Positions 85 through 22,738 of a stretch of DNA of 28,840 nt are shown here, piece by piece. The position numbers and the translations under genes were made by a program. Each line of letters opens with the position of its first letter. The first letter of the stretch is position 1. A model generated the notes under the pieces. That model had not been told where the DNA came from. It was given only the letters and a program-made list of their open reading frames with translations, and made no database searches. The DNA is from a virus: the IMG/VR virus record IMGVR_UViG_3300009551_000105. One strand, 5' to 3'.

Positions 85-513
85 ATGGAAAAAGTAGATT
101 TTAAATTTCACACCCAATCTAAACGCAATGATAAGCGTGGGAAAAATAATCTATTTTCAAAAAGGATCTATCAATTTTCAATTGATGGAAATTTAATTAA
201 TATATTTTATGGAACTGTTGAAGCTCAAGAAAAAACAGGAGTTCGTCGAGAATCTATCAGTCGTTGTTGTAACAATAAACTGAAAAGTTCAGGCGGATAT
301 TTGTGGTCATATAAAAATCTATGTCCTCCATTTCCTAGTAGAGAAGTACGTACAAGAAAAAATAAAATTATATTAATTGGTCCTAATCAAAATATTTACA
401 AAATAGGGAATTTAAAAAAGTTCTGCGAAGAACAAAAATTAAACTATAAGAGCTTTCATAAAGCTATTAATGGAAAAAACAAAGCCTACGGCATTTGGCA
501 AAGAAAGAAATAG
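85..513 (+). CDS. Standalone homing-endonuclease-like DNA-binding protein (Seg/I-TevI-type NUMOD-like HTH repeats, no catalytic domain); likely degenerate HEG remnant
   Basis: Two copies of the HEG C-terminal DNA-binding module: 'IYQFSIDGNLINIFYGTVEAQEKTGVRRESISRCCNNKLKSSGGYLWSY' and 'IYKIGNLKKFCEEQKLNYKSFHKAINGKNKAYGIW'. The same motif type occurs in the C-terminus of the GIY-YIG ORF at 10055-11035. No GIY-YIG or HNH motifs are present. ATG at 85 is preceded by GAAGAGA. Stop lies 3 nt before the sheath start. Confidence 0.6.
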   Translation: MEKVDFKFHTQSKRNDKRGKNNLFSKRIYQFSIDGNLINIFYGTVEAQEKTGVRRESISRCCNNKLKSSGGYLWSYKNLCPPFPSREVRTRKNKIILIGPNQNIYKIGNLKKFCEEQKLNYKSFHKAINGKNKAYGIWQRKK

Positions 514-516
514 AAA

Positions 517-3516: not shown

Positions 3517-3540
3517 TTTATTAGCAGCTAAATAAAGATA

Positions 3541-3577
3541 AAACCGTCAACATTACAGTTCGACGGTTTTATTTTTG
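3541..3577 (+). terminator. Rho-independent terminator after sheath gene
   Basis: Hairpin aaaccgtc(aac)...(gtt)cgacggttt followed by tatttttg. Confidence 0.65.
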
Positions 3578-3626
3578 TTAAAAGTTAGCATATTTAGATT
3601 TTAGTAAAGGCTCAAGTTCATCCACA

Positions 3627-4427
3627 ATGACAAAATTGGACATTAAAGAATTACAAAAAATAATCCGTGAATCAATTTCTGAAGAAATCAAAAAAGAAGG
3701 TTGGGGCACTGTTCGCCGTAGTCGTGGCTGGGATCTTGACGACGATCATTATGAATCTGCTGAAGATTTTGCACCTGATGATGGTGACGTTAAAAAGGAT
3801 CGTGAAACTGGCGAACGTATGGTTTGGTCAGGCGATGAAGGTAAGTGGATTTACGAAGAAGATTGGCAACAAATGAATCTTGCCAAAAGAGCTAAAGAAG
3901 AAGCCGAAGAAGATTTAGATGAAACTGCTTCGATATCGTCTGTAGATGGAAAAAATACAACATTAATGCCAGAATCCCATAAGAGATTTTTGGGCGTAGT
4001 AAAAAATTCATTGAAAGTCAATGAACAAAAGAAAAAATCAGAGAAAAAGCCAATTAAAGAACATCGCAGCAAAAAGACAATGACTTTTGGTCAAATCCCG
4101 CCTGCTGAAGAATTGTTCAAATTAATGAATGGTGAAGAATTTCATTTAAACCTTCAAGGGGAAGGTTCGTTGGCTTTTGAGTATGCAGTTAGATTAAGTC
4201 AAGATCCTTTGGCTGGTTCTCTAGCTCCGGGAAAGGGTATGGAGTCCACATTGCAGGCTCTTGTAAACGCTCCAAGCCCTTCGGAAATACCAGATGAGGA
4301 ATACGAGACCGTACAAAAGATTTTAGACCACTGGTACTCACGTTACGGCGAAGACCATCCAATAGAAGAAGCTGCTTGGTCAATTGCGTCAGATATAATG
4401 GGAGTCTTGGGAATAGAGTGGATTTAA
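3627..4427 (+). CDS. Hypothetical protein with N-terminal amphipathic leader (MTKLDIKELQKIIRESISEEIKKEG); candidate prohead internal/packaged protein
   Basis: Intact 266-aa ORF with ATG start, in the head-gene neighbourhood. The leader resembles those of ORFs 4477, 18628 and 20039. No recognisable catalytic motifs. Confidence 0.5.
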   Translation: MTKLDIKELQKIIRESISEEIKKEGWGTVRRSRGWDLDDDHYESAEDFAPDDGDVKKDRETGERMVWSGDEGKWIYEEDWQQMNLAKRAKEEAEEDLDETASISSVDGKNTTLMPESHKRFLGVVKNSLKVNEQKKKSEKKPIKEHRSKKTMTFGQIPPAEELFKLMNGEEFHLNLQGEGSLAFEYAVRLSQDPLAGSLAPGKGMESTLQALVNAPSPSEIPDEEYETVQKILDHWYSRYGEDHPIEEAAWSIASDIMGVLGIEWI

Positions 4428-5128: not shown

Positions 5129-5605
5129 ATGCCTAATCATCATCAGACAATAGTACAAGTTCCCCCAACTACGAGTGCCAATGGTTCAACAGATACAACT
5201 GCTTTAACTCTTGCATATCCTGGTTCTCCGATTTTTCACGGCGACCTTACAGATGAAACTGTCAAAAATTTATTTGAAGCAGTTACTCACGGTGATCAAT
5301 CAGATGGTGGACATACGTTTGGTAGTGTAAATATGGATTTCGCTGCCGCTCCAAATTTGGCAGAAGTTACAACTGGTGGTGGTGGATTGCCTGGCTCTCC
5401 ATATGCCCCAAACATTGCATCTCCGCCAGTTGGACAAAACCCAACTGATATTCCTGCATCTGGCGTCGAAGCAACAAATCGTGCAAGAGGTTCAGGTGGA
5501 GCGTTCGTAGGAAACGGTCTCGAATCACCAAGTGAAGGTTCCGCAAACGTTGGTCGACAACGTATTGGTTCATTAATGAATGGAACTTCGACTCCGAGAT
5601 CATAA
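5129..5605 (+). CDS. Hypothetical Gly/Pro/Ser/Thr-rich protein
   Basis: 158-aa ORF with ATG. Low-complexity composition. No similarity to T4 tail tube gp19 despite position and size. Confidence 0.4.
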   Translation: MPNHHQTIVQVPPTTSANGSTDTTALTLAYPGSPIFHGDLTDETVKNLFEAVTHGDQSDGGHTFGSVNMDFAAAPNLAEVTTGGGGLPGSPYAPNIASPPVGQNPTDIPASGVEATNRARGSGGAFVGNGLESPSEGSANVGRQRIGSLMNGTSTPRS

Positions 5606-5620
5606 TTAAGGAAATAGAAA

Positions 5621-7933
5621 ATGAGTGATCTTTATACAGAAGCACTGAAAAATGCTGAAAAATTACGTGAGATTGCGGAACAAGACGCAAAAAAGCGTAT
5701 AATTGAGGCACTTACTCCTTACATCAAAAAGGTTATTGCTAAAGAAGCTGCTGGTGAGGCAACTGATTTTTATTTTGAACAAGCAGAAGATCTTTCTCAA
5801 CTGCCTGATGAAGATGAAAATAATCCAGTAGCACCAGAAACAGCTACTCAAGGCGCTGCGCCTACTAGCGATCCAACGGCTATTGATCCTGCCACAACTG
5901 ATCCAACTCAAGATTTGAGCGCAGGACCACTTGGCGATCAATCAACAGAAGCTCCAATTGATGCAACTCCAGCACCTGTGACAGCAACGACTGGTCCAGA
6001 TGGAAAAATGAAAATTGGTTTTGATAATCTTACCGTAGATGCTACTTCTGATGAAGTAACAATTACTCCACACGCTGCACCTGCTGCTGAACCTGCTCCA
6101 ACTGCACCAGTTCAAGCCAAGGGCACAACACCAACAACAGGAACCGCTCCTGCACCAACTGCTGCTCCGGCACCAGTACCAGGCGCAGAACAAGCAGTTC
6201 CGCCAGAAGAAGAAGATGAAGATCTTCTAAAGCAACCAGTTGCTAATGAAGCAATTTCTTATTCTGACTATCAAAGAGTTTACAGCAATATTGCTGAAAA
6301 AATAGATCGTGCATTATTTACAGGAAATCTTTCAAATGTGGGTTCTGAAACCCTCAAACAAAGACTTTTTGGCCTTCTTGAAGCTGTAGATACGATGCGT
6401 GACCGTGGCGCCATTTCAAATAAATTAGCAAGAACACAAGAAAATAAACTAGAATTTTTGTTCTTAAAGCTGAAAGAGGCCAATGTGCATAATAGTTACT
6501 TCAAGAACAATAGTGAAAAAGGACCTGAAGACATGAAGACTCTTAAAGAATTTGCAGCACAGCTTTTCGAGGAAGATGAAAATCTTGCCAAAGATTCTGT
6601 TAGCACCGGCGAGACCGGCGTTAAAGTTGACAACGAAAAGACAGAACACGCACAGAAGGTTTCTGGCGTAAGTCCAAAACTTGGTAGCAAAAAAGATATC
6701 AAGGTTGCTGCTGAAGGTAAAGCATCAGAAGCAGATGCCATTTCTGGCTCTGTTGAAGATGATACCCAATGGGCAGATGGTGAACCTGTTGTTAAAGAAA
6801 ATAGCGCAAATGCTAACAAGGATGCAAATCCAGAAGTTAAAAAGGGCGCTGGCGGATTCGGCGATACGGATGAAGAACCAGTTGCAGAACCAATGACCGA
6901 AGAATTTGAAATTGACGAAGCAGAGCTTTCTGAAGCAGTTCGTTCGGTTCGTAAAGAAAGTCTCAAGCGTAAGCTTGCTGCTCTTCGTGAAGAAACGAAG
7001 AAAGACAAAAAGAGCCCGAAAGTTAAAGCTTCCGAGGATTACCCAAACCCAGGTCCAGAAGGCGGAGAAGATCCATCTCACGATCATCTAAAAGAAGGTC
7101 TTGAAGATATGATGGCTGGCGGAGACGCTGATGCAGATGCTGGCTTGGATGGCGCATCTGATGGCGCAGACGAAATGGGCGACATGGATTCAATTGCTGA
7201 CCTAGTTCTCTCAATCGATCTTCCACCAGAAGTCGAAGCAGAGCTTGCTAAGCTTGGTGTAGTTTCTGACGATCTTGATGTTGATGTAAAACTCAATGTC
7301 GGTGGCGAAGAACATGCAGATGCAGACGCAATGGGCGGCGACGATGAAATCGAAATTACCGATGATGGTGATGCAGATGACATTGGTGGTTCTGAAGAAA
7401 AAGACGAAATGCTTGCTGACGATGTTGACGAGTCTGCTGCAATGCCAATGGAAACAAAAATGGAAAATGCATCAGCTAAACACCTTGCACGCAAAGTTCA
7501 AATGCTTGAAAGCAAGCTAACACAAGCAAGCAAATTGCTTGAAGCAAAAGATGGTGAAATGAGTGAGTTGAAAGGCCAATTGTCTGAAACAAACTTGTTC
7601 ACTGCTAAAACAGTATACTACAGTAAGTTCCTTCAAAGAGCACTTACTGAAAAAGCTCTCTCCAAGAAAGTTCTACAACAAATTGTCGAGCACCTTGACA
7701 GAGCAAAGACGATTGCTGAATCGAAAGCAATCTTCACAAGCATCAAGCGCAAGCTTGATGAGCACGCATCTGCTTCCCTTAAATTGGGCGGTTCTTCCTC
7801 AAAGGTGGCCAAACCAGGAAGCGCAAGCCTTACTGAAAGCGTCTCAAGAGACGTCATTTCGGAAGGCATCGATCCTAACTCACAAACACCAATGCGCTGG
7901 CAAATACTTGCTGGTATCAAAAAAGGTGAATGA
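5621..7933 (+). CDS. Large highly acidic coiled-coil protein; putative prohead scaffold/core protein (gp22-like role)
   Basis: 770 aa, extremely D/E/A-rich, with helical N- and C-terminal segments (C-terminal 'LARKVQMLESKLTQASKLLEAKDGEMSELKGQL...'). It lies immediately upstream of the major capsid gene. Initiation region GAAATAGAAAATG is identical to the sheath gene's. The assignment is positional and compositional only. Confidence 0.45.
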   Translation: MSDLYTEALKNAEKLREIAEQDAKKRIIEALTPYIKKVIAKEAAGEATDFYFEQAEDLSQLPDEDENNPVAPETATQGAAPTSDPTAIDPATTDPTQDLSAGPLGDQSTEAPIDATPAPVTATTGPDGKMKIGFDNLTVDATSDEVTITPHAAPAAEPAPTAPVQAKGTTPTTGTAPAPTAAPAPVPGAEQAVPPEEEDEDLLKQPVANEAISYSDYQRVYSNIAEKIDRALFTGNLSNVGSETLKQRLFGLLEAVDTMRDRGAISNKLARTQENKLEFLFLKLKEANVHNSYFKNNSEKGPEDMKTLKEFAAQLFEEDENLAKDSVSTGETGVKVDNEKTEHAQKVSGVSPKLGSKKDIKVAAEGKASEADAISGSVEDDTQWADGEPVVKENSANANKDANPEVKKGAGGFGDTDEEPVAEPMTEEFEIDEAELSEAVRSVRKESLKRKLAALREETKKDKKSPKVKASEDYPNPGPEGGEDPSHDHLKEGLEDMMAGGDADADAGLDGASDGADEMGDMDSIADLVLSIDLPPEVEAELAKLGVVSDDLDVDVKLNVGGEEHADADAMGGDDEIEITDDGDADDIGGSEEKDEMLADDVDESAAMPMETKMENASAKHLARKVQMLESKLTQASKLLEAKDGEMSELKGQLSETNLFTAKTVYYSKFLQRALTEKALSKKVLQQIVEHLDRAKTIAESKAIFTSIKRKLDEHASASLKLGGSSSKVAKPGSASLTESVSRDVISEGIDPNSQTPMRWQILAGIKKGE

Positions 7934-7937
7934 AATT

Positions 7938-7996
7938 AGGAAAATAGCTTTAGATTGTTATATTTAGGAAAATAAGGAAGATTTTGAGGAAAATAA
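7938..7996 (+). promoter_or_regulatory. Three direct copies of AGGAAAATA (7938-7946, 7966-7974, 7988-7996) upstream of the major capsid gene; the third is the RBS
   Basis: Seen directly. Spacing 28 and 22 nt. Function unknown; candidate late-gene regulatory or ribosome-loading element. Confidence 0.3.
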
Positions 7997-7997
7997 A

Positions 7998-9920
7998 ATG
8001 AAGACATTTACACTTGCACAATTAGCAGAAGGTACGCACCGCCGTTCACTTGGCGCAGACGCACCACGTCTCGCTAAGAAATGGTCTGCAACTGGTCTTC
8101 TTGAAGGTCTTAAAGGCATGAACCGTGACAATATGTCTCGTCTTCTTGAGAACCAGGCTGCTGAGCTTCTCAAAGAAACGAATGCATTGTCCACTGGTGG
8201 CGCTGCCCTTACTTCAAGCGGTAAAATCGCAGGTTTTACTAACGTCGCATTCCCAATTGTGCGCCGTGTATTCGCAGGTTTAATTGCAAACGAAGTTGTA
8301 TCGGTTCAGCCAATGAGCCTTCCAACCGGATTGCTTTTCTATCTAGATTATACATACGGCTCATCCATTGGTGGCGATGCAGGTACAACTGCTAACCAAT
8401 TCGGAACAACGTCCGTAGTTAACCCATCAACCTACACCAGCCAAGACTCTGTGTACAACAACCCACGTGGTTCAGGTGTACGCTCAGGTTCTCTTGCAAC
8501 TGGCGGTCAATATGACTTGGTAGGTCATGGTTATTCAAAAGTTCACGTACAAAGCCGTTGGCTCTCTGGCTCCACTGACTCGGTCGGTGCATGGGTTTCA
8601 GGTTCCACATGGACGAGCGCAGCAACTGTAGCAGCTTCGGCTGACTTCACGGGCTTCAACGCACGTTATGCAATGTACGATTCAACTGTAGAAGTTGATC
8701 TTGGAAACAACGCACTTGATTACTGCTTCGCCTTCATCAGCGCATCAGAATTCTCGGGCAAGATCAATGGCGCAGACTTGAACAACATCAACCAAATCAG
8801 CTTGACTGGTTTCGGTGGTGTAACAAACTCCTCCATTGAATGGGGTGAGAAGTACCAAGGTGGTCGTGGCGTACTCAATCTCCGCAAGCTAACGCAACGT
8901 GGAAACTGGAACGCTACAGCAGGTCTCTTCACACCAGATCCACTTAACGGCTCACATCTTTTGTTTGTTGTACGTCTTGCTAACGCAGGTACGGCTCCAG
9001 CTCCAAACGGTGCAGTTGGTAACGCAGTAACAGCATCCGCAGCAATTGCAGACGCTCTCTCTGTAAACAGTGATGGTTCAACTCTTACGATCCCAAGCTT
9101 CGAATCTGACTTCGCCGTCGATTCCAGCCCACGTATCCCAGAAGTTGATATCCGTATCGAATCCACAAGCGTAACGGCTCAAACCCGTAAGCTACGTGCT
9201 CGTTGGTCACCAGAAATGGCTCAAGACCTTACGGCCTTCTACTCAATCGACGTAGAAGTTGAATTGACAAACATTCTCTCCGAGATGATCACGCTCGACA
9301 TCGACCGTGAAATCTTGAACGACTTGCTTACCCAAGCAGGTGCAGCAAACTTGTTCTGGTCACGTGCCCCTGGCAAGATCGTCAACAAGTTCACTGGAGC
9401 TGAAGCACTTCACACAAGCACGCTTGCACCAGGCCCAATGGCATTTGTAAACATCCAAGAATGGTATCAAACCCTTCTTGAGACGATTACGGACGTGGCT
9501 AACACCATTCACCGTAAGACGCTTCGTGGTTCAGGTAACTTCATTGTAACGTCACCAGACGTTTGCACAATCCTTGAGCATCTTGTAGCATACAAGCCAT
9601 CCTACCGTGTAGACGCAGATGGTCAAGTACGTGACAACATGGTCATCGGCGCAGAAGCAGTTGGTACGCTTAATAACCGTTACACCATCTACAAAGATCC
9701 ATACTTCCCAAGCAACAAGATCCTTGTTGGTTTGAAGGGTAACACCTTCCTTGAGAGTGGTTATATCTACGCTCCATACGTTCCTCTCATCTTGACTCCG
9801 GTCATCTATGCACAGGAAGACTTCACGCCACGTAAGGGTGTAATGACCCGCTACGGCAAGAAGATGGTTCGTAACGACTTCTACGGAACCGTTACAGTGT
9901 TGGATATGAGTACCATATAG
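7998..9920 (+). CDS. Major capsid protein, T4 gp23-like (HK97 fold with insertion domain)
   Basis: 'VRRVFAGLIANEVVSVQPMSLPTGLLFYLDY' matches T4 gp23 'VRRAIPNLIAFDICGVQPMNSPTGQVFAL'. 'ARWSPEMAQDLTAFYSIDVEVELTNILSEMITLDIDREILNDL' matches 'LKAAYSIELAQDLRAVHGMDADAELSGILATEIMLEINREVVDWI'. 'RGSGNFIVTSPDV' matches 'RGEGNFIIASRNV'. C-terminal 'YIYAPYVPLILTP...TRYG' matches gp23. N-terminal propeptide-like segment ends in 'ELLKE'. Confidence 0.95.
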   Translation: MKTFTLAQLAEGTHRRSLGADAPRLAKKWSATGLLEGLKGMNRDNMSRLLENQAAELLKETNALSTGGAALTSSGKIAGFTNVAFPIVRRVFAGLIANEVVSVQPMSLPTGLLFYLDYTYGSSIGGDAGTTANQFGTTSVVNPSTYTSQDSVYNNPRGSGVRSGSLATGGQYDLVGHGYSKVHVQSRWLSGSTDSVGAWVSGSTWTSAATVAASADFTGFNARYAMYDSTVEVDLGNNALDYCFAFISASEFSGKINGADLNNINQISLTGFGGVTNSSIEWGEKYQGGRGVLNLRKLTQRGNWNATAGLFTPDPLNGSHLLFVVRLANAGTAPAPNGAVGNAVTASAAIADALSVNSDGSTLTIPSFESDFAVDSSPRIPEVDIRIESTSVTAQTRKLRARWSPEMAQDLTAFYSIDVEVELTNILSEMITLDIDREILNDLLTQAGAANLFWSRAPGKIVNKFTGAEALHTSTLAPGPMAFVNIQEWYQTLLETITDVANTIHRKTLRGSGNFIVTSPDVCTILEHLVAYKPSYRVDADGQVRDNMVIGAEAVGTLNNRYTIYKDPYFPSNKILVGLKGNTFLESGYIYAPYVPLILTPVIYAQEDFTPRKGVMTRYGKKMVRNDFYGTVTVLDMSTI

Positions 9921-9935
9921 TCTAAATATTTAGAC
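9920..9935. repeat. Perfect 16-bp palindrome GTCTAAATATTTAGAC, abutting and sharing 1 nt with the capsid gene stop codon (TAG 9918-9920)
   Basis: Seen directly; the sequence is its own reverse complement. Confidence 0.8.
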
Positions 9936-9955
9936 TGAAATAGTTTAGGAATGAA

Positions 9956-9984
9956 GGCCAGATGCAAATCTGGCCTTTTTCTTT
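9956..9984 (+). terminator. Rho-independent terminator after capsid gene
   Basis: ggccaga-tgcaaa-tctggcc followed by tttttcttt. Confidence 0.8.
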
Positions 9985-10054
9985 ATCTTTTTTGACTTCT
10001 ATGGAATATTTGATTAGGGTATACAAAAGTCTTCTTATGTTTTATTCTTTAGAG

Positions 10055-11035
10055 ATGAAAAACTTTTTTAATGGTCAATCAAAATGTGGTGGCGTGTATA
10101 GAATATTTTGCACAAAATCTTTTAGATCTTATATTGGTTCAACTGCTGTTTTTACAAACAGATTTTCACAACATAAAAAAGATTTATTTAATAATTTGCA
10201 TCATTGCAAATTTCTTCAAAGAGAATGGAATAAATTTGAACCAGAAGATTTTGTGTTTGAAATATTGGAGACAATAGAAATACAAAATCCGAAAGAAGCA
10301 AAGGAAAAAAGACTTCAAACAGAACAAAAATATATTGATGAGATATTACAAAAGTTCAATAGAGACCAACTCTACAATGGTTATACAAATGTAAGAGACA
10401 TTCCTTATCTTACGAGACACGATGACTATAAAGAAAAAATGAGAGTAAAAATGGTCGAATATTATTCCAAGCCAGAAAATAGAGAAAAATCAAAACAACA
10501 AGCGCTCAAGCAGTGGTCTGAACATTCAGCTAAAATAACAGTTACAAATAAAGATACAAAAGAAACGGTTTTGATAAATGGTTCCATTAGGGACTTCTGT
10601 TTAGCTCGTAATCTCTCATATAAATCATTCCATCTTATGGTCCAAGGAAAAGTAAAGGTCTCTGATGGCTGGTTCCTTGGCACGGAAGAGCCAAAGTATC
10701 ATAATCGTAGAGGTGAGAAGAGAGGTCCAATGTCCAAAGAACAGAAAGAGACAAGAGCGGACGTCTCAAGGGAAGGTATAGTTATAGAAAATTTTATAAC
10801 AAAGGAAACTATTGTGCTTGGTAAAAATATTAAGGATAGCTGCTCTCCAGGGAAGCTAGACTATAAGGCTTTGAGAAGATTGTTGCTTGATGAAACTTCG
10901 TTTACACAAAACGGATGGTTTAAGAAATCATTAGAGACCAAGGTTAGAAACGAGATTAAAGGTTTTTGTGGAAAGTGTAATCTAGTGTTTGGAAGTAGCT
11001 CAGGAATGAGAAACCATAGGAGAAGATGTGAATGA
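10055..11035 (+). CDS. Free-standing GIY-YIG homing endonuclease (T4 Seg / I-TevI-like) with C-terminal NUMOD-like DNA-binding repeats and a Cys/His zinc-finger-like tail
   Basis: 'GVYRIFCTKSFRSYIGSTAVFTNRFSQHKKDLFNNLHHCKFLQREWNKF..FVFEILE' carries the GIY..YIG, R, H, N and E motifs of the GIY-YIG domain. C-terminal 'LINGSIRDFCLARNLSYKSFHLMVQGKVKVSDGWF' and 'IVLGKNIKDSCSPGKLDYKALRRLL' are HEG DNA-binding modules. 'CGKC...H...C' at the end. The upstream in-frame start at 9962 overlaps the terminator, so ATG 10055 is chosen. Confidence 0.88.
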   Translation: MKNFFNGQSKCGGVYRIFCTKSFRSYIGSTAVFTNRFSQHKKDLFNNLHHCKFLQREWNKFEPEDFVFEILETIEIQNPKEAKEKRLQTEQKYIDEILQKFNRDQLYNGYTNVRDIPYLTRHDDYKEKMRVKMVEYYSKPENREKSKQQALKQWSEHSAKITVTNKDTKETVLINGSIRDFCLARNLSYKSFHLMVQGKVKVSDGWFLGTEEPKYHNRRGEKRGPMSKEQKETRADVSREGIVIENFITKETIVLGKNIKDSCSPGKLDYKALRRLLLDETSFTQNGWFKKSLETKVRNEIKGFCGKCNLVFGSSSGMRNHRRRCE

Positions 11036-11688
11036 AATATGATATTGTTAATATTTTGAAATCAGGGTATCATATTGACTTGAAACTAAAAACTTTTTCA
11101 AATAATAGAAAAATAACCCTTGAAAGACTTTGGTGTGAGCTTACTAAAAAATTTTATCACATAAATGATACAATAAGATTAATATCAATTGATAATCAAA
11201 ATTTAACTTTTGTATATATTGATAAAACATCACCTGCCGGAATTGTTTCTTATTCGTTTGATTTGCGTCAAGGAATAATAGACGAAAGAATTAATTTATT
11301 ATTAAACGAATTATATGATGTTATAGATATAGTTCATCCATCGTGGGGGCTCGCAAAAACATATAAAAGCAAATTTTTATTGTCAGAAGAAGAAATAGAA
11401 AAAAAACTAAAAACAATAGGACTTGAACCGCAAAATTTAATTGAACCAAAAATTGGTAATTTAGTTAAATTAAGATTTAACATCGATACAAATGAACCGT
11501 TAATTTATAACGGTTCATTTTCTGGACTTCTCCCGATTCAGGAAGAATGGGATGATATATTTCTAATTTCAGACATTGTCAATGATATATGTGACCTGTT
11601 AAGTCAAACAAATCAAAATAGAGAAAAACCATTGCAAAATCCATTAAAAAAATGTTCAATTGAATATTTGTACAAAATAAATCCATGA
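11032..11688 (+). CDS. Hypothetical protein (218 aa), translationally coupled (ATGA overlaps) to the HEG upstream and to paralog A downstream
   Basis: ORF with ATG start. AT-rich. No recognisable motifs. Confidence 0.45.
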   Translation: MKYDIVNILKSGYHIDLKLKTFSNNRKITLERLWCELTKKFYHINDTIRLISIDNQNLTFVYIDKTSPAGIVSYSFDLRQGIIDERINLLLNELYDVIDIVHPSWGLAKTYKSKFLLSEEEIEKKLKTIGLEPQNLIEPKIGNLVKLRFNIDTNEPLIYNGSFSGLLPIQEEWDDIFLISDIVNDICDLLSQTNQNREKPLQNPLKKCSIEYLYKINP

Positions 11689-12062
11689 TCATTAAACCCT
11701 GTTCCAAGTTTTACAAGGTTGCTGACAGCAGAGGAGATATTTTTGTCCTGCATCATAATAAAAATGAGGCAGTTTGCTCTTATGAACGCCAATATTATTC
11801 CAATTTTAACAAAGGGATAGCGTTAATTCAGACAAAAAGAAGCATTGACAAGATTAATGAAAAATATGGAAACGATACAGTATTTCCGGCACAAGCAATT
11901 TCTGGAATTATTTATGTTTTTGAATATGAAAAAGTGTCAGCTAACGAAGCAACCACTGATTTGTGGCATGAAGTTTGGCATTGCATTGTTGGGGATAAAA
12001 TTGGTTGGATGCATGTTCCCCATTGGATGAAAAGAGAATATTTTTCGGAATTATCAAAGTAA
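11685..12062 (+). CDS. Paralog family member A (divergent); C-terminal 'WHCIVGDKIGWMHVPHWMKRE'
   Basis: Shares the C-terminal W.VIVGDK.GW..VP.W.K motif with 6 other ORFs. Confidence 0.55.
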   Translation: MIIKPCSKFYKVADSRGDIFVLHHNKNEAVCSYERQYYSNFNKGIALIQTKRSIDKINEKYGNDTVFPAQAISGIIYVFEYEKVSANEATTDLWHEVWHCIVGDKIGWMHVPHWMKREYFSELSK

Positions 12063-12101
12063 GAATAAAAACACATATTTTTAATCAGAGCTTTAGAACA
12101 A

Positions 12102-12467
12102 ATGAATAACTTCTACAAAATACCAAAAAATATTTTGATTGATCACCTGCTTCTTTTTGAAACAATAGAAGATTGCGAAATTATGGGATCAGAAATTCGA
12201 AGTCAAAATAATAGAATTGGTTTAATTCTATCCTGGGAAACCGAAGGAAATAGTGAAACTCGGTATAACCTTGACGTTGTCAAACAAATTTTAAGTAAAA
12301 ATGCAATATTTTCTGTAAAATCTACGGATATAATTTTTCAAATCAAAAAAGTACATGATTGTGGAAATTTTTTTGACTATTGGCACGTTATTGCTGACGA
12401 TAAAGTTGGATGGATTGTTTTACCAACCTGGCTTAAATTAGAAAGAGTCAAGGAAAATGTTTTATAG
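12102..12467 (+). CDS. Paralog family member B; 'NFYKIPK...LLLFETIEDCE' and 'YWHVIADDKVGWIVLPTWLKLE'
   Basis: Family motifs at both termini. Confidence 0.6.
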   Translation: MNNFYKIPKNILIDHLLLFETIEDCEIMGSEIRSQNNRIGLILSWETEGNSETRYNLDVVKQILSKNAIFSVKSTDIIFQIKKVHDCGNFFDYWHVIADDKVGWIVLPTWLKLERVKENVL

Positions 12468-12515
12468 AACCAAATAGATTATTCTTTTATTCTTTTGAAG
12501 TATTATTTTTAATCT

Positions 12516-12845
12516 ATGACTAAATTTTTTAGATTCAAAAATATTACAGGGCTCAATATAACGCTTCATATCTTTGAAACAATAGAAAAGGCAAAAATGT
12601 GTACTAAAATACACTTAGCTATGAAAAATGCTAAAAGTCTACAGAAACAAAATGCCTGTGAAGAAGAATGCAAAAAACTATATGTAAATAATATGTTGCT
12701 GTCTTCGGACGAAAGTGATATATTTTTTCTTATTTCAAAGGAAAAAGGAAAAAATGCGGACGTAGAATATCTTCAAGTTATTGTCGGAGAAAAATTTGGG
12801 TGGATAATTGTACCATATTGGTTTAAAACAGAGGAAATAAATTAA
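12516..12845 (+). CDS. Paralog family member C; 'KFFRFKN...LHIFETIEKAK', 'DIFFLISKE', 'LQVIVGEKFGWIIVPYWFKTEEIN'
   Basis: Family motifs. Confidence 0.6.
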   Translation: MTKFFRFKNITGLNITLHIFETIEKAKMCTKIHLAMKNAKSLQKQNACEEECKKLYVNNMLLSSDESDIFFLISKEKGKNADVEYLQVIVGEKFGWIIVPYWFKTEEIN

Positions 12846-12846
12846 G

Positions 12847-13152
12847 ATGTTTTATAGAGCTACAAAATATCCATATATTTTCATTTATGAAACAAAAGCT
12901 ATTGCAACTTCAGCCAGTAAAGACCTGGGTCCACGTTTTGGTGATGAACATGATAATGTTTTAAAAATTGCAGAACGATGGTCTCAAAAGTTGGGTTCGA
13001 AAGTTCTTTATTCCAATCCTGGTGATATGATCTTTTGTGTTTCAAAAGATGGTTTTGATGAATATTCAGAGATATGGAATGTGATTATTAACGATAAAAT
13101 TGGATGGATTTTGCTTTCTGGTTGGTGCAAGATAGGATTGGTTCAGGTTTAA
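12847..13152 (+). CDS. Paralog family member D; 'MFYRATKYPYIFIYETKAIA', 'WNVIINDKIGWILLSGWCK'
   Basis: Family motifs; 1-nt spacing to neighbours. Confidence 0.6.
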   Translation: MFYRATKYPYIFIYETKAIATSASKDLGPRFGDEHDNVLKIAERWSQKLGSKVLYSNPGDMIFCVSKDGFDEYSEIWNVIINDKIGWILLSGWCKIGLVQV

Positions 13153-13153
13153 A

Positions 13154-13486
13154 ATGTTTTATAGAACCAAAAAAGAACTTTATGTATTTCTTTATGAAAC
13201 AAAAGAAGATGCATTACACGCACAAGAAAATTGGTCTCATGCAGTAGCGGCTCAAACAGTTGTCTATTCGGAAGCCTGGGTTATTGAGGCGGCAAAATAT
13301 TGGTCACAAAAATTAAAAAAGAGAGTAACGTATTCAAAACCAAATGATATATTTTTTCTTATATCAGAAGAAGATGCAAAGAACAACAATAATCAGGATC
13401 TTAAAATCATGAATTTTATTGTTGGGGACAAGTACGGTTGGGTAGCAGCTCCTTCTTGGTTGAAGATGGAGGAAATAAATGAGTAA
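13154..13486 (+). CDS. Paralog family member E; 'MFYRTKKELYVFLYETKEDA', 'DIFFLISEED', 'NFIVGDKYGWVAAPSWLKMEEINE'
   Basis: Family motifs. Confidence 0.6.
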   Translation: MFYRTKKELYVFLYETKEDALHAQENWSHAVAAQTVVYSEAWVIEAAKYWSQKLKKRVTYSKPNDIFFLISEEDAKNNNNQDLKIMNFIVGDKYGWVAAPSWLKMEEINE

Positions 13487-13784
13487 TTTATATCGTGCCC
13501 CAAAAGATACTCCAATGCTTTTACTTTATGAGACCGTTGAAATGGCACATAAGGTTGCGTTACCAAATGGTCCGACGGAAGATGAAACATATTTTTTATC
13601 AAAATTTTGGTCAATAGACACTAAAACCAAAGTTCTATGTTCCAATCCATCCGACATATTTTTTCTTCTTGACAAAGAAATAGATGGAAAATGTGAATAT
13701 TGGAATGTTTTGGTAGGAGAGAAAATCTGGTGGCTATGCGTTCCTTTATGGACTAAAATGGAACAAGTTATTATTACAAAATAG
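13479..13784 (+). CDS. Paralog family member F; 'SNLYRAPKDTPMLLLYETVEMA', 'DIFFLLDKE', 'WNVLVGEKIWWLCVPLWTKMEQV'
   Basis: Family motifs; 8-nt overlap with E. Confidence 0.6.
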   Translation: MSNLYRAPKDTPMLLLYETVEMAHKVALPNGPTEDETYFLSKFWSIDTKTKVLCSNPSDIFFLLDKEIDGKCEYWNVLVGEKIWWLCVPLWTKMEQVIITK

Positions 13785-13885
13785 ACATTTAATTTATTTC
13801 AATTTATTCTTCTAATTGAAGTCTTTCCTGGCTTCAAGGGTAAAGTTAGTCAGCTTGACAACTCCCTAACACATTAGGAGAAAAT

Positions 13886-14458
13886 ATGAGTAGAGATAGT
13901 GAATTAATTATTGAATCCCGTTATATACACACGGGAAATAGCGGCGTGACCATTTCAGTTGAAAGAGACGTAAAGAGACCAACAAGAGCAATCTTGAAAG
14001 TACGCAATGGTTCTCACGGAGCGTTTTCAACAGAAATGGAAATTCGAGGTAATGATTATAATGGTATGTGCGCCAATCAATTACGTGATCTTGCCTTGAT
14101 CTTTTTAGAGGGTGCAAACACTTTAGACGAAATCAAAGAAGGAAAACCGGGAGATTTTCAATATTCGAATGAAAACTCGCCTTCCATTTTACCAGAAGAT
14201 GGCGTCGAAGAAGCTAGCAGGATTTCTAGAAAACTTCAAGACCATCTAGTTCAACAATATAAAGATAAAGGCGATACAAACGCTTATATGACAGTCCATG
14301 AACTTGTTCAAACGAGTTCAAAGGGTTGGTCAGGCGGTACGGATAAAAATGGAAAATTGAAACTCGATAAAGAAACTAGGGAAAATATGAAAAAACCTAG
14401 GATCGATAAGGTAACTTTGGTAATGGATCGATTAAAATATCTAGTAAATAAACTGTAA
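13886..14458 (+). CDS. Hypothetical protein (190 aa)
   Basis: ORF with strong SD (AGGAG, 5-nt spacer) and a terminator downstream. Confidence 0.5.
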   Translation: MSRDSELIIESRYIHTGNSGVTISVERDVKRPTRAILKVRNGSHGAFSTEMEIRGNDYNGMCANQLRDLALIFLEGANTLDEIKEGKPGDFQYSNENSPSILPEDGVEEASRISRKLQDHLVQQYKDKGDTNAYMTVHELVQTSSKGWSGGTDKNGKLKLDKETRENMKKPRIDKVTLVMDRLKYLVNKL

Positions 14459-14464
14459 GAAACA

Positions 14465-14494
14465 AGGACCATTTATTTGGTCCTTTTCTTTTTG
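14465..14494 (+). terminator. Rho-independent terminator
   Basis: aaggacca-tttat-tggtcctt followed by ttctttttg. Confidence 0.8.
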
Positions 14495-14513: not shown

Positions 14514-15236
14514 ATGATTTATTATCAATGGTCCAGAGGACACACGCAATTATTTTGGGATTTTGATCAAAATACTCGACAAAGTAAGTTAAATGATCTC
14601 TTTGTTAAATATTTTGGAGAAAGAAGCCACGGATTCTTTGTTGAAATAGGTGCAAATAACGGACTTGATTGCGGTGTCACAACTCCGTTGGCCGATTTAG
14701 GTTGGACGGGACATTTTATAGAACCCGATCCAGATATGGCTCGTGTGTGCCAAAATAACCATGCAAATAATCCAAATATATCAACGCACGTTCTAGCTAT
14801 CTCAAATGAAAATGGCGAAGGCACGCTTCACATGGCCGGAATGGGGTCTACCATTTCAGAGCAATATTTTCAAACCGCAAAAACCATTGGATGGAGTGGA
14901 TTGTCAGATAATTCGGGTAAAGTAACAGTTACCAAATCAACCTTGGAACATTTTTTACAGACTATCAATGCACCTTCAAACTATGATTTATTATCTATTG
15001 ATACAGAAGGTTCTGAATTGGATATTTTAGAAGCATTTTCTGGTCATTGGGACCAGTGGCGCCCAAAAATGATTGTCATTGAACTAACGGATGAACATCC
15101 TGATTTTAGAAATAGACCAGATTGGGTTGAACGTGAATTGAAAACACGTAAACTTATTTTAGATGCCGGTTATAAACTTGAGTTTAAAGATGAAATAAAT
15201 TCAGTCTATGTATATAATGAAATAAAATCATTATGA
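14514..15236 (+). CDS. FkbM-family SAM-dependent methyltransferase (Methyltransf_21-like)
   Basis: 'FVEIGANNGLDCG' matches the FkbM 'DIGANvG..S' motif. Overall pattern '..GW.G..IEP.P........N.......A.S...G...L........S.....L....DLL.ID.EGSELDIL.....W....P.MIVIE' fits the FkbM domain. Confidence 0.75.
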   Translation: MIYYQWSRGHTQLFWDFDQNTRQSKLNDLFVKYFGERSHGFFVEIGANNGLDCGVTTPLADLGWTGHFIEPDPDMARVCQNNHANNPNISTHVLAISNENGEGTLHMAGMGSTISEQYFQTAKTIGWSGLSDNSGKVTVTKSTLEHFLQTINAPSNYDLLSIDTEGSELDILEAFSGHWDQWRPKMIVIELTDEHPDFRNRPDWVERELKTRKLILDAGYKLEFKDEINSVYVYNEIKSL

Positions 15237-18627: not shown

Positions 18628-19299
18628 ATGACAATGAAAATCAAGAAGAGTGAATTGCAAAAAATGATCCGTGAAGCGATTCTTAAAAACGTTAAGAAAT
18701 ATCTTACCGAACAAGCTGCAACCGGATTGAAGCAAAGAATTGCTGCAAAATCAACTACTGCTGCCAAAGATCAGGTAAGCATTGACAAATTGATGATGGC
18801 ATTGGATGGTATGGAAAAAGGCGGCAAAAAAGCCGTATCTTTTGATGAACTTGTTGCGGTTGCAAAAAAGTCAATTGAAGTTTCAGCACCGCTTGGAAAA
18901 GGTTCGGCACAAGGTCTTGCTCAAAGAGCAACATCAAAAACTGGTGGCGCACCTGTGGTAGCTCCTCCAGCAAATCTTAATCAACCTCGTCAAGAAAGCA
19001 AAAAAAATTCTGGAAAAAAGTTAAAAGAACAGAATGATGATATTGCTGCAAAATTAGATACGATGAGCAATTTACCTGAAGCAGAAGAAGATGAAAAGGC
19101 AATGAAAGAAGCTGTTGGTCATCTTGAATCGTGCATTGTAAAAGTTAGAGAAGTTGCACATATGGCTGACGAAGAAGAAAGAGACGAAGCATCGGCTTTA
19201 TTCGAAACAATTAATAATCTAAAAGCAGAACTTGAAGTTTTGAAGCATCTTGCAGAAGAGCTTAAAATGGAACAATCAAGTGATGAATGGTCTGAATAA
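18628..19299 (+). CDS. Hypothetical protein with N-terminal leader (MTMKIKKSELQKMIREAILKNVKKYLTEQ) and acidic C-terminal helix
   Basis: Leader similar to ORF 3627. Upstream AAGAACAAATCC is shared with ORF 19318. Confidence 0.5.
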   Translation: MTMKIKKSELQKMIREAILKNVKKYLTEQAATGLKQRIAAKSTTAAKDQVSIDKLMMALDGMEKGGKKAVSFDELVAVAKKSIEVSAPLGKGSAQGLAQRATSKTGGAPVVAPPANLNQPRQESKKNSGKKLKEQNDDIAAKLDTMSNLPEAEEDEKAMKEAVGHLESCIVKVREVAHMADEEERDEASALFETINNLKAELEVLKHLAEELKMEQSSDEWSE

Positions 19300-19317
19300 T
19301 ATAAAAGAACAAATACA

Positions 19318-20025
19318 ATGTCAAATATATCAAGAGCTAGATTTCAAAAATTAGCAGGCATTCTCACCGAAGAATCGAAAGAGTCGTTGCAAGAAACCAT
19401 AATGGAAGGGGCTTCAAGACCTTTCGATATGGATGCAAAAGAAATGCTCATAAGATATTGTGCGTGGCTCCGAGCAATTCATATTTGGTTTCACGGAGCA
19501 CATCATACAACTCGTGGAGTTGGATTTTCGGGCGATCATACTGCTCTCTTTGAAAGAATTTACACAGCCGTCCAAGATGAAGTGGATGGAGCTATAGAAA
19601 AAGCAATTGGAATTACTGGCGACCAAGGTTTGGGATGCCCGAAGTTGATTACAAGAGAAGCTTTAACCCTAATCGATCGTTATGGTTCCCCTGCCGAAAT
19701 GGAATCAAAAAATATTGCAAAAGAAGGTCTTAAAATTGAGGAAGACTACATTGCTTTCGTAGAAAGAATGTTTAAAGCTTTTGAAGCAAAAGATATTATG
19801 ACGCTTGGATTAAACGATCAATTGGCAGCATCAGCAAATGCACACGAAACGTTTGTGTACCTTCTTTCTCAAAGAATTAGAAGCACAGAGGACACAGTAA
19901 TGCAAATGGACGATGTTGGGGAAACTTCAACTTTCCATCTTCCAGAATTACCAGCAAACCTGGGTACCGTACCAATGGCACCAGTTAAAGTTCCTAATGC
20001 TGGCGGCAATCCATTTGGAATGTAA
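19318..20025 (+). CDS. Hypothetical protein with leader 'SRARFQKLAGILTEESKESLQE' (paralogous to N-terminus of 21291-21830)
   Basis: ORF with ATG; shared LAG(I/L)L(T/K)E motif. Confidence 0.5.
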   Translation: MSNISRARFQKLAGILTEESKESLQETIMEGASRPFDMDAKEMLIRYCAWLRAIHIWFHGAHHTTRGVGFSGDHTALFERIYTAVQDEVDGAIEKAIGITGDQGLGCPKLITREALTLIDRYGSPAEMESKNIAKEGLKIEEDYIAFVERMFKAFEAKDIMTLGLNDQLAASANAHETFVYLLSQRIRSTEDTVMQMDDVGETSTFHLPELPANLGTVPMAPVKVPNAGGNPFGM

Positions 20026-21855: not shown

Positions 21856-22263
21856 TCAAATGTTTTTTCTATTTCCAATTGTCATATGAAAACAGTGTTT
21901 TAAGTCTGGCGGACAATTATATTTTGCCCAAATTGGTAGCCCTAATTCGGAACGAATATTTTCTAAATCTTTACTGTAGCAATTCAGCCAATAGTATGTT
22001 TCGTCATTATAAACCACTGGTTCATATTGAAAATCGATCACTTTACCTTCGTAAAGCTCCCACTTTGTTAAATCTAATGGTTTTTCTTTACGGACTACTG
22101 TAATATGAGGAGCATAGCGTTGCTGATTACATTTGTACCACTTTGGTAAAAGTCCCTTGTAATAAGCAGAAATTTGTGGGTCAACCTCGACATTTACCTT
22201 ATAGTAAGTGTCTGGATCTACGACCGAATATCGTAAAATGCCCTGTGAGCTTATGAGCTGCAT
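21856..22263 (-). CDS. 2H-phosphoesterase-superfamily protein (two H-x-T-x motifs); candidate Acb1-like cyclic-oligonucleotide phosphodiesterase
   Basis: 'APHITVV' and 'HCFHMTIG' are separated by about 73 residues in a ~135-aa protein, as in LigT and Acb1 folds. Start uncertain (TTG at 22278 or ATG at 22263). Confidence 0.45.
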   Translation of the reverse strand: MQLISSQGILRYSVVDPDTYYKVNVEVDPQISAYYKGLLPKWYKCNQQRYAPHITVVRKEKPLDLTKWELYEGKVIDFQYEPVVYNDETYYWLNCYSKDLENIRSELGLPIWAKYNCPPDLKHCFHMTIGNRKNI

Positions 22264-22318
22264 AACGTATAATACCAAATTGGTATAAATTAATAAACCA
22301 TTATGTAAAGTTCATAGG

Positions 22319-22738
22319 ATGAAAAACGAATTTTATTTTTTTATTGACTTATATACTTTTTTATTCGAAAATAAAAACGATGCTATTGAATATAAAACAA
22401 CAGAAAACGATATGGTCTTCTATGATTTAGAAGAGGCAGAGTTTTGGAGTCGTCTGACCGATTATAAAATTTCTATAATAGATGAATTTATTTTATTTCT
22501 TGTATTAGAAAAAGAAGTAGTAACTTCTTCATATGAAATTTGGAAAGTTATTGGTTTGGAAAAAGTTGGTTGGATTGTTGTTGACGAAGAGGTTAAACCT
22601 TATCTAAAATTATTAACAGAGAAAAATAAAGAAAAATTTGTTAATGATAAAGAATACGCAGAATATGAAAAAACTGCTGAATATGCGGAAGCATATAAAG
22701 AGTATGTCGAAAAAAACGAAAAGAACTTTTTGTCGTAA
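22319..22738 (+). CDS. Paralog family member G (remote copy); 'YEIWKVIGLEKVGWIVVDEEVKPY' plus EYA-repeat C-terminal extension
   Basis: Shares the W.VIG.EK.GWIVV motif with the tandem array at 11685-13784. Confidence 0.5.
   Translation: MKNEFYFFIDLYTFLFENKNDAIEYKTTENDMVFYDLEEAEFWSRLTDYKISIIDEFILFLVLEKEVVTSSYEIWKVIGLEKVGWIVVDEEVKPYLKLLTEKNKEKFVNDKEYAEYEKTAEYAEAYKEYVEKNEKNFLS

What the first reader, a model, noticed from the sequence alone, without database searches (positions are those of the whole stretch)
11685..13784. Tandem array of six paralogous small genes (seventh copy at 22319-22738) with conserved termini and variable cores
Six consecutive ~100-125-aa ORFs sit 1-40 nt apart or overlapping. 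They share N-terminal (F)YR..K....(F/L)LYET.E.A, central DIFFLIS.E and C-terminal (Y)W.VIVGDK.GW(I/V).VP.W.K.EEI motifs, while their middles have diverged strongly. A seventh member lies at 22319-22738. The block is much more AT-rich than the structural genes. Tandem paralog expansions with conserved ends and variable cores in phage accessory regions are typical of arms-race loci such as anti-defence factors, host-takeover factors or superinfection exclusion. I cannot place this family in any family I recognise.
Basis: seen in the sequence. Interest (0 to 1): 0.8.

Follow-up and report, generated by a model that had tools for sequence, protein, structure and literature searches.

The report
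Tandem family of small phage proteins
A T4-like phage from a metagenome carries seven copies (six in a row) of an unnamed ~110-residue protein with a predicted SH3-like barrel core and two highly variable segments; two close relatives carry ten to twelve copies at the same locus, so this is a high-turnover accessory family, probably host-directed, whose function is still unknown.

The parts
9953..9978 (+). Intrinsic-terminator-like hairpin plus T-run directly after the major capsid gene. It marks the upstream edge of the block that holds the array.
   Evidence: DNA synteny with L004 ends at 9908.
9962..11035 (+). GIY-YIG homing endonuclease ORF, first cargo of the island. The true start is probably the ATG at 10055, because the listed start lies inside the terminator hairpin.
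   Evidence: PF01541 at 4e-7 and phrog_314 at 2e-14; sequence. The L004 locus has no such ORF at this position.
11032..11688 (+). 218-aa ORF of unknown function. Its ATGA overlaps both the endonuclease stop and the W1 start. It is island cargo, not a family member.
   Evidence: No Pfam or PHROG hit. No profile hit. No homolog in any fetched locus.
11685..12062 (+). W1, family member (125 aa), the most divergent of the tandem copies.
   Evidence: Leave-one-out E 3e-7. Non-window profile E 9e-9.
12102..12467 (+). W2, family member (121 aa), with a long low-confidence insert between the two helices.
   Evidence: AF2 model pLDDT 81.8, same topology, residues 39-47 below pLDDT 50.
12457..12515 (+). 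Relic of the 5' end of a lost family copy in the W2-W3 spacer. It reads ATG TTT TAT AGA ACC AAA TAG (MFYRTK*). Window 12454-12474, which holds this start, is 21/21 nt identical to the start region of W5 (13151-13171), and similarity runs on for a further stretch, to about 55 nt in all.
   Evidence: Repeat family D5; alignment A4.
12516..12845 (+). W3, family member (109 aa).
12847..13152 (+). W4, family member (101 aa).
13154..13486 (+). W5, family member (110 aa) and the modelled reference. Predicted elements: strands 2-5 and 12-14, helices 17-31 and 40-54, strands 58-60, 66-76, 82-90, 93-100 and 105-108.
13479..13784 (+). W6, family member (101 aa). It overlaps W5 by 8 nt. Synteny with L004 resumes at 13805.
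13886..14458 (+). 190-aa backbone gene flanking the array downstream. It is conserved in L004 (56% aa) and present in L141. Function unknown.
14464..14485 (+). Bidirectional terminator-like hairpin closing the co-oriented block.
22319..22738 (+). W7, solitary divergent member (139 aa) with an acidic KE-rich C-terminal tail. It is an insertion relative to L141, between a 2H-phosphoesterase-like gene and the vault-protein-like gene.
   Evidence: Non-window profile E 6e-12. pI 4.47. By my reading of the gene table and the DNA matches, the spacer is 558 nt here against 150 nt in L141.

Best explanation
The array is a lineage-specific, tandemly expanded family of small soluble single-domain proteins (about 100-125 aa). 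Each copy has a conserved predicted scaffold: two N-terminal strands, a helical hairpin and an SH3-like five-stranded barrel. The barrel carries the near-invariant G-W turn of the W.VI.GEK.GWI motif. Two segments differ strongly between paralogs in sequence and length: the distal half of the helical hairpin and the tip of the beta4-beta5 hairpin. The copies sit in insertion islands of T4-like and other large phages. They evolve by birth and death, through duplication or acquisition, whole-gene deletion and divergence. I infer that each copy is a stoichiometric binder or inhibitor of a different host (or competitor) protein. On this reading the array is a repertoire for host takeover or counter-defence, expressed with the neighbouring island genes as one co-oriented block between two terminators. 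What is shown: paralogy, coding constraint, predicted fold, location of variability, copy-number variation and turnover. What is inferred: binding, and the host-directed role.
Against: There is no direct evidence of binding or of any target. No known anti-defence, defence or immunity family matches. dN/dS is below 1 everywhere, so there is no signature of positive selection; dS is near saturation, so the test is weak. The host is unknown. Expression time is unknown, and the promoter scans were uninformative. The array lies beside late structural genes in this window. SH3-like barrels also bind nucleic acids and peptidoglycan.
Confidence: 0.4

Rival explanations
1. The copies are immunity-like neutralisers. 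Each would block one toxin or effector (host abortive-infection toxins, or toxins of competing phages or bacteria), as tandem immunity-gene arrays do in polymorphic toxin systems. This is a narrower form of the binder idea with a defined target class.
For: The pattern of tandem arrays of about 100-aa divergent paralogs with varying copy number matches the immunity-gene arrays treated in the polymorphic-toxin and SUKH papers that the search returned (PMC3482391, PMC3113570). I read only their titles and abstracts, so the array description rests on my own knowledge. Orthologs are conserved while paralogs are divergent.
Against: No toxin gene was recognised next to any array examined. No hit to any Pfam family, which would include any immunity families Pfam holds. 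The strict-motif scan of 185,579 species genomes found no bacterial copy, whereas immunity families are normally abundant in bacteria.
Confidence: 0.15
2. The copies are small nucleic-acid-binding regulators that modulate phage or host gene expression, using the SH3-like, Sm, KOW or Tudor type of barrel as an RNA chaperone or as an RNA-polymerase or ribosome-associated factor.
Against: The family has no common basic charge; 65% of members are acidic and the median pI is 6.2. hhalign probability to T4 GoF and MotB.1 is below 1%. A need for 6-12 divergent copies is hard to explain for a general chaperone.
Confidence: 0.15
3. The copies are virion-associated or assembly proteins (decoration, internal or ejected proteins), encoded with the structural genes and packaged into the particle.
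For: In the window, L004 and L141 the array follows the major capsid gene directly, on the same strand as the late genes. T4 internal proteins are a precedent for a variable gene set linked to the head (my own knowledge).
Against: A strong terminator separates the capsid gene from the block. Relatives with capsid proteins up to 89% identical have no copy within 10 kb of the capsid gene. In other phages, members lie among replication, nucleotide-metabolism and auxiliary genes. There is no conserved N-terminal cleavage or targeting peptide beyond the fold's own first strand.
Confidence: 0.1
4. The copies are largely dispensable duplicates that persist through recombination between their conserved ends. 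On this reading they have little or no selected host-directed function.
For: Conserved 5' and 3' ends give DNA repeats at the gene junctions that could drive unequal recombination (D1-D5). Copy number is unstable. The block is AT-rich.
Against: All copies have intact ORFs. dN/dS is 0.14-0.44 between orthologs, and the variable segments are also constrained. The family persists across phage backgrounds with GC from 29% to 42%.
Confidence: 0.1

Closest known systems
Bacterial SH3 (SH3b) domains of endolysins and NlpC/P60 hydrolases (e.g. phiSM101 endolysin 4krt, lysostaphin SH3b, InlB GW modules)
   Different: No sequence-profile match to any SH3 or GW Pfam family even at E<=1. Here the domain is a stand-alone protein of about 110 aa with no catalytic partner and no TM-like segment; I saw no signal peptide but ran no predictor. 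It has an approximately 40-residue helical hairpin inserted after the second strand. Foldseek finds no full-length match in PDB or BFVD.
[quoted passage not shown]
   Same: These are several small, non-essential, sequence-divergent paralogs per T4-type genome, built on a five-stranded SH3-topology barrel, with function unresolved.
   Different: hhalign probability is below 1% to GoF and MotB.1. tblastn of a member and of the family consensus against 50,697 phage genomes finds nothing. The T4 genes are conserved across Tevenvirinae, whereas the family here is patchy and its copy number is unstable.
Hyperplastic regions of T4-like phages
   Same: In both cases variable accessory genes are clustered between conserved core blocks (abstracts of PMC4122927 and PMC2839356). 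Here the island lies between the capsid gene and a backbone gene, with exact synteny breakpoints.
   Different: To my knowledge (I read only the abstracts listed), described hyperplastic regions hold mostly unrelated ORFans. Here one island is filled by 6-12 paralogs of a single family. I found no promoter-stem-loop shuffling cassette.
Tandem immunity-gene arrays of polymorphic toxin systems, and the SUKH superfamily (PMC3482391, PMC3113570)
   Same: Both are arrays of small divergent paralogs with varying copy number, interpreted as binder repertoires against diversified partners.
   Different: There is no sequence match, no adjacent toxin and no bacterial members. The fold differs, from my own knowledge of SUKH.

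Membership tests
SH3b / bacterial SH3 superfamily (Pfam clan SH3: SH3_3, SH3_4, SH3_5, GW) | Significant match to a family profile HMM | tested here: not met
   hmmscan of the 7 window proteins at E<=1, and of 73 members at E<=0.01, found no SH3 or GW family.
SH3b / bacterial SH3 superfamily (Pfam clan SH3: SH3_3, SH3_4, SH3_5, GW) | SH3-like five-stranded barrel fold | tested here: met
SH3b / bacterial SH3 superfamily (Pfam clan SH3: SH3_3, SH3_4, SH3_5, GW) | Cell-wall (peptidoglycan or teichoic acid) binding, usually fused to a lytic enzyme or secreted | not testable with these tools
   No fusion partner and no hydrophobic stretch typical of a TM segment. Binding itself cannot be computed.
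T4 LSm-like family (GoF / MotB.1 / Frd.2) | Detectable sequence or profile relationship to GoF or MotB.1 | tested here: not met
   hhalign probability 0.08% and 0.26%. Frd.2 was not tested.
T4 LSm-like family (GoF / MotB.1 / Frd.2) | N-terminal bent five-stranded barrel followed by a variable C-terminal domain | tested here: not met
   Here the barrel is C-terminal and is interrupted by a helical hairpin after strand 2. Only W7 has a separate C-terminal tail.
Dynein light chain LC8 | Profile match and the LC8 beta-alpha-alpha-beta4 swapped-dimer fold | tested here: not met
Known anti-phage defence or counter-defence families (PADLOC models; PHROGs annotated families) | Significant profile match | tested here: not met
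   PADLOC gave one member at E 0.0035 to 'E2' and nothing else. PHROGs gave four single-member hits at E>0.002.
Polymorphic-toxin immunity arrays | Adjacent toxin gene or cassette, and presence in bacterial genomes | tested here: not met
   No toxin domain was recorded in the neighbourhoods. The motif scan of GTDB species genomes gave 0 relatives. That scan covers only copies carrying I[IV]GEKIGW.

The most novel reading that the evidence does not exclude
The family is a new class of phage counter-defence or host-takeover protein. On this reading it is a genomically encoded repertoire of scaffolded mini-binders: an invariant SH3-like core presenting two paralog-specific variable segments. Each copy would neutralise a different host immunity or housekeeping protein, and the repertoire would be reshuffled by gene gain and loss between closely related phages.
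Probability: 0.25. Interest if true: 0.7.

Novelty: new member of a known kind. Interest (0 to 1): 0.5.

Why it matters
If the binder-repertoire reading is right, the family would give a compact, well-folded scaffold of about 100 aa with natural variable segments. It would also be a fresh source of inhibitors of bacterial proteins, from phages of uncultured soil or sediment hosts. Even without a function, it is a clear example of birth-and-death evolution of one protein family inside a phage insertion island. The syntenic locus holds 6, 12 and 10 copies in three relatives and preserves a relic of a deletion. The family has about 130 representatives at 50% identity and lacks any database name, so it is worth a family definition.

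Tried and rejected
1. Named-family assignment. Pfam, PHROGs, NCBIfam and PADLOC scans of the 7 copies and of 73 relatives gave nothing meaningful.
2. Isolate phages and plasmids. tblastn with W5 and with the family consensus found no match; the low-complexity filter may have masked part of the consensus.
3. LC8 dynein light chain. A marginal profile similarity was rejected because the fold search does not support it.
4. Foldseek against PDB and BFVD found no significant match. The afdb50 library was unavailable.
5. T4 GoF and MotB.1 kinship was rejected by hhalign.
6. The 218-aa upstream ORF is not a degenerate member; it gets no profile hit.
7. Promoter motifs. Sigma-70-like sites are fewer than in shuffles. 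The Bacteroidetes -7 box is not enriched. ATATTTRK is about 2-fold enriched and lies upstream of the tube and capsid genes, but it does not settle how the array is expressed.
8. A degenerate DNA scan of IMG/VR for GEKIGWI gave 48 chance hits and no members. The search for related loci with the 73-sequence alignment failed for lack of a conserved stretch.
9. Positive selection. dN/dS is below 1 in the core (0.26) and in the variable segments (0.33), with saturated dS.
10. A conserved partner gene. The downstream 190-aa gene occurs only in the two closest relatives, and nothing else co-occurs.
11. Population SNPs. The second sample shows only three synonymous differences.
12. No tRNA or Rfam family is present in the window.

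Full report
**Observation**

The window carries six co-oriented ORFs at 11685-12062, 12102-12467, 12516-12845, 12847-13152, 13154-13486 and 13479-13784. Their lengths are 125, 121, 109, 101, 110 and 101 aa. The gaps between them are 39, 48, 1 and 1 nt, followed by an 8-nt overlap. A further ORF lies at 22319-22738 (139 aa).

The relationship is statistically secure.
- 18 of 21 pairs give BLASTP hits.
- Leave-one-out profiles recover each omitted tandem copy at E 3e-7 to 2e-18, and the seventh copy at 1.8e-3, for a nominal database of 1e6.
- A profile built from 96 relatives found outside the window hits exactly these seven ORFs among all six-frame ORFs of the window, at E 2e-25 to 9e-9.
- No further copy is present in the window, and the adjacent 218-aa ORF is unrelated.
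- GC is 0.29-0.32 over the array, against 0.42-0.50 over the portal and capsid genes.

**Genome context**

The window belongs to a T4-like myovirus. It encodes a 999-aa tail sheath and a 640-aa gp23-type major capsid protein. No near-identical DNA exists among isolate phages. The closest capsid proteins are 45-48% identical over about 60% of the query. They come from an uncultured 484-kb phage record, Flavobacterium phage immuto and a Microcystis phage.

A strong terminator hairpin (9953-9978) follows the capsid gene. After it, all on the + strand, come:
- a GIY-YIG homing endonuclease;
- a 218-aa ORF of unknown function;
- the six family copies;
- a 190-aa gene;
- a second terminator at 14464-14485.

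No tRNA or Rfam element is present.

**The family**

None of the seven proteins, and none of 73 relatives, matches Pfam, PHROGs, NCBIfam or PADLOC. tblastn against 50,697 phage genomes and 72,556 plasmids finds nothing.

An exhaustive HMMER search of 1.84 billion representatives with the seven-sequence profile found 130 proteins at E<=1e-3, 20 of them at E<=1e-10. All are 65-159 aa long.

Sources checked are Logan, JGI and ENA metagenome assemblies, plus one contig of an NCBI assembly (GCA_040960215.1). None carries a name other than 'hypothetical protein'. A motif-anchored scan of one genome per 185,579 bacterial and archaeal species found no relative. The same kind of scan found none in IMG/VR.

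**Fold**

AlphaFold2 with the 73-sequence alignment gives a confident model of W5 (pLDDT 90.4, pTM 0.82). Its elements in order are strands 2-5 and 12-14, helices 17-31 and 40-54, then strands 58-60, 66-76, 82-90, 93-100 and 105-108. W2 gives the same topology (pLDDT 81.8), with a disordered insert between the helices.

So the barrel is of a known type. The full architecture, with its helical-hairpin insertion, has no detected counterpart. Marginal profile hits to dynein light chain LC8 (E 0.06-0.2) are not backed by the fold search, and I discard them.

**Where the variation lies**

Column entropies mapped on the model give the following picture.
- Conserved positions: the first strand (F2, Y3); strand 2 and the helix cap (L/I-Y-E-T-K-E-x-A); the end of helix 2 (W-S..L); P63; I67-F68; and the beta5-beta6 hairpin W86-x-V-I-I-G-E-K-I-G-W-I, in which G95 and W96 are near-invariant.
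- Variable positions: 21-49 (distal helical hairpin, with most indels after residue 34) and 73-84 (beta4-beta5 tip, also with indels).

Family pI ranges from 4.8 to 9.1 with a median of 6.2. No TM-like segments occur.

**Comparative genomics**

- **L004.** This 73.7-kb contig from JGI 3300037810 has a capsid protein 93% and a sheath 84% identical to the window's. Gene order is the same. DNA synteny (about 77% identity) stops at window 9908 and resumes at 13805. In that gap L004 has 11 tandem family copies, three other ORFs and a twelfth copy. It has no endonuclease and no 218-aa ORF there.
- **L141.** This third relative has 8+2 copies at the same locus.
- **Divergence between copies.** No two copies exceed 42% identity, within or between the window, L004 and L001. 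Window and L004 arrays share no DNA similarity except one 49-nt stretch at window 12777-12825, at the site of repeat family D1 that encodes the VI.GEK.GWI motif.
- **Orthologs.** L141 and L004 share eight recognisable orthologous copies (44-76% aa identity) interspersed with non-shared ones.
- **More distant relatives.** Eighty IMG/VR relatives have capsid proteins 53-90% identical. 48 of them have at least 4 kb downstream of the capsid gene. None has a family member. In L008 the site holds unrelated cargo.
- **Other backgrounds.** Adjacent copies are the usual arrangement. L001 has 11-14 copies in 20 kb. L088 has 8 copies filling a 2.5-kb contig. L148 has 9 copies at the end of a 99-kb contig with GC 42%. 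L091, L142, L144, L147, L150, L151 and L152 have 3-4 copies each. L140 and L090 have single or paired copies among auxiliary genes: an aminoacyl-tRNA synthetase, ClpP, Macro, NUDIX, Thg1, Pol X and an RNA ligase.

**Selection and turnover**

Orthologous copies between L141 and L004 have dN/dS 0.14-0.44. Flanking genes have 0.05-0.18. dS is about 0.5-1.9, so these estimates are rough. Pooled over the eight pairs, core codons give 0.26 and variable-segment codons 0.33, with 67% and 51% aa identity respectively.

So the genes are functional and less constrained than their neighbours. The segments that differ wildly between paralogs are nevertheless conserved between orthologs. This fits paralog-specific function better than drift, and it gives no evidence of ongoing positive selection.

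The W2-W3 spacer holds a relic: ATGTTTTATAGAACCAAA followed by TAG. Window 12454-12474, which spans this start, is 21/21 nt identical to the start region of W5 and alignable further. This is a footprint of a deleted copy. W7 is an insertion relative to L141. The conserved gene ends form short DNA repeats at the junctions (D1-D5). These could mediate unequal recombination; that is an inference.

**Interpretation**

Shown:
- a new, unnamed protein family, seen so far only in metagenome assemblies;
- a predicted SH3-like barrel with a helical-hairpin insertion;
- strong paralog divergence confined to two segments;
- residence in insertion islands;
- rapid gain and loss of copies.

Inferred (confidence about 0.4): the copies are stoichiometric binders of different host or competitor proteins, forming a repertoire for takeover or counter-defence.

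Rivals are immunity-like toxin neutralisers (0.15), nucleic-acid-binding regulators of the LSm/KOW/Tudor kind (0.15), virion-associated proteins (0.1) and weakly selected duplicates (0.1).

The T4 GoF/MotB.1/Frd.2 LSm-like family is the nearest conceptual precedent (PMC12152347). It is not related by profile comparison. The setting matches the hyperplastic regions of T4-like phages (PMC4122927 and PMC2839356).

**Verdict**

The finding is a new member of a known kind of feature, namely lineage-specific accessory gene expansions in phage plastic regions. Interest is moderate (0.5). It would rise to about 0.7 if a host-directed binder repertoire were demonstrated.

Noticed in passing
window 22837-25515 (+): An 892-aa ORF matches the major vault protein shoulder domain (PF11978, 3.9e-26) and a vault repeat (PF17795). 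An 886-aa counterpart sits at the same position in L141. A 2023 bioRxiv preprint (10.1101/2023.11.10.566534) reports viral MVPs from gut phages. This one is in a T4-like phage recovered from JGI metagenome samples.
   Followed up: partly
window 7998-9920 (+): The major capsid protein is 640 aa, but the best gp23 Pfam stretch covers only residues 358-631, so roughly the N-terminal half lies outside that stretch. At least 598 relatives of this long capsid protein exist in IMG/VR.
   Followed up: partly
window 9962-11035 (+); also L011 11951-12688 and L018 12161-13093: A GIY-YIG homing endonuclease sits directly downstream of the capsid gene, here and in some relatives. L004 has none there, and its match to this protein lies about 10 kb downstream, at 19196-19516. 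The listed start overlaps the capsid terminator hairpin, so the ATG at 10055 is the likelier start.
   Followed up: partly
window 21856-22278 (-): A 140-aa ORF with two H.T motifs matches the 2H phosphoesterase domain 2H-SAK (PF22547, E 4e-5, below the gathering score). It lies head-to-head with W7. From my own knowledge, phage 2H enzymes include cyclic-nucleotide-degrading anti-CBASS proteins. This was not tested.
   Followed up: no
window 3590, 7960 and 9922-9933: ATATTTAG occurs upstream of the tube and capsid genes and within a palindrome (GTCTAAATATTTAGAC) just after the capsid stop. ATATTTRK occurs 16 times against 8.2 expected. It may be a late-promoter or regulatory motif.
   Followed up: partly
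window 14514-15236 (+) compared with L004 17648-18280 and L141 7144-7776: The window has an FkbM-type methyltransferase (PF05050, 3.5e-23) and a 169-aa ORF between the 190-aa gene and the conserved DUF7178 gene. L004 and L141 lack these. They carry a Methyltransf_24-type gene on the other side of DUF7178. This is another small plastic spot.
   Followed up: no
L001 (JGI 3300037810, 128-kb contig), 338-4185 and 5446-8381: Long runs of 84-126-aa genes lie around the detected family members. Several score only weakly (E 1e-3 to 1e-6) with the family profile. The true family, or a superfamily, may therefore be larger than the 130 representatives counted.
   Followed up: partly
L140 (Logan SRR22868754, 108.6-kb contig): A large phage contig carries one family member among an aminoacyl-tRNA synthetase, ClpP, a Macro domain, an IF1-like protein, a SpoU methylase and Thg1. 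This is an unusually rich set of translation and RNA-repair genes.
   Followed up: no
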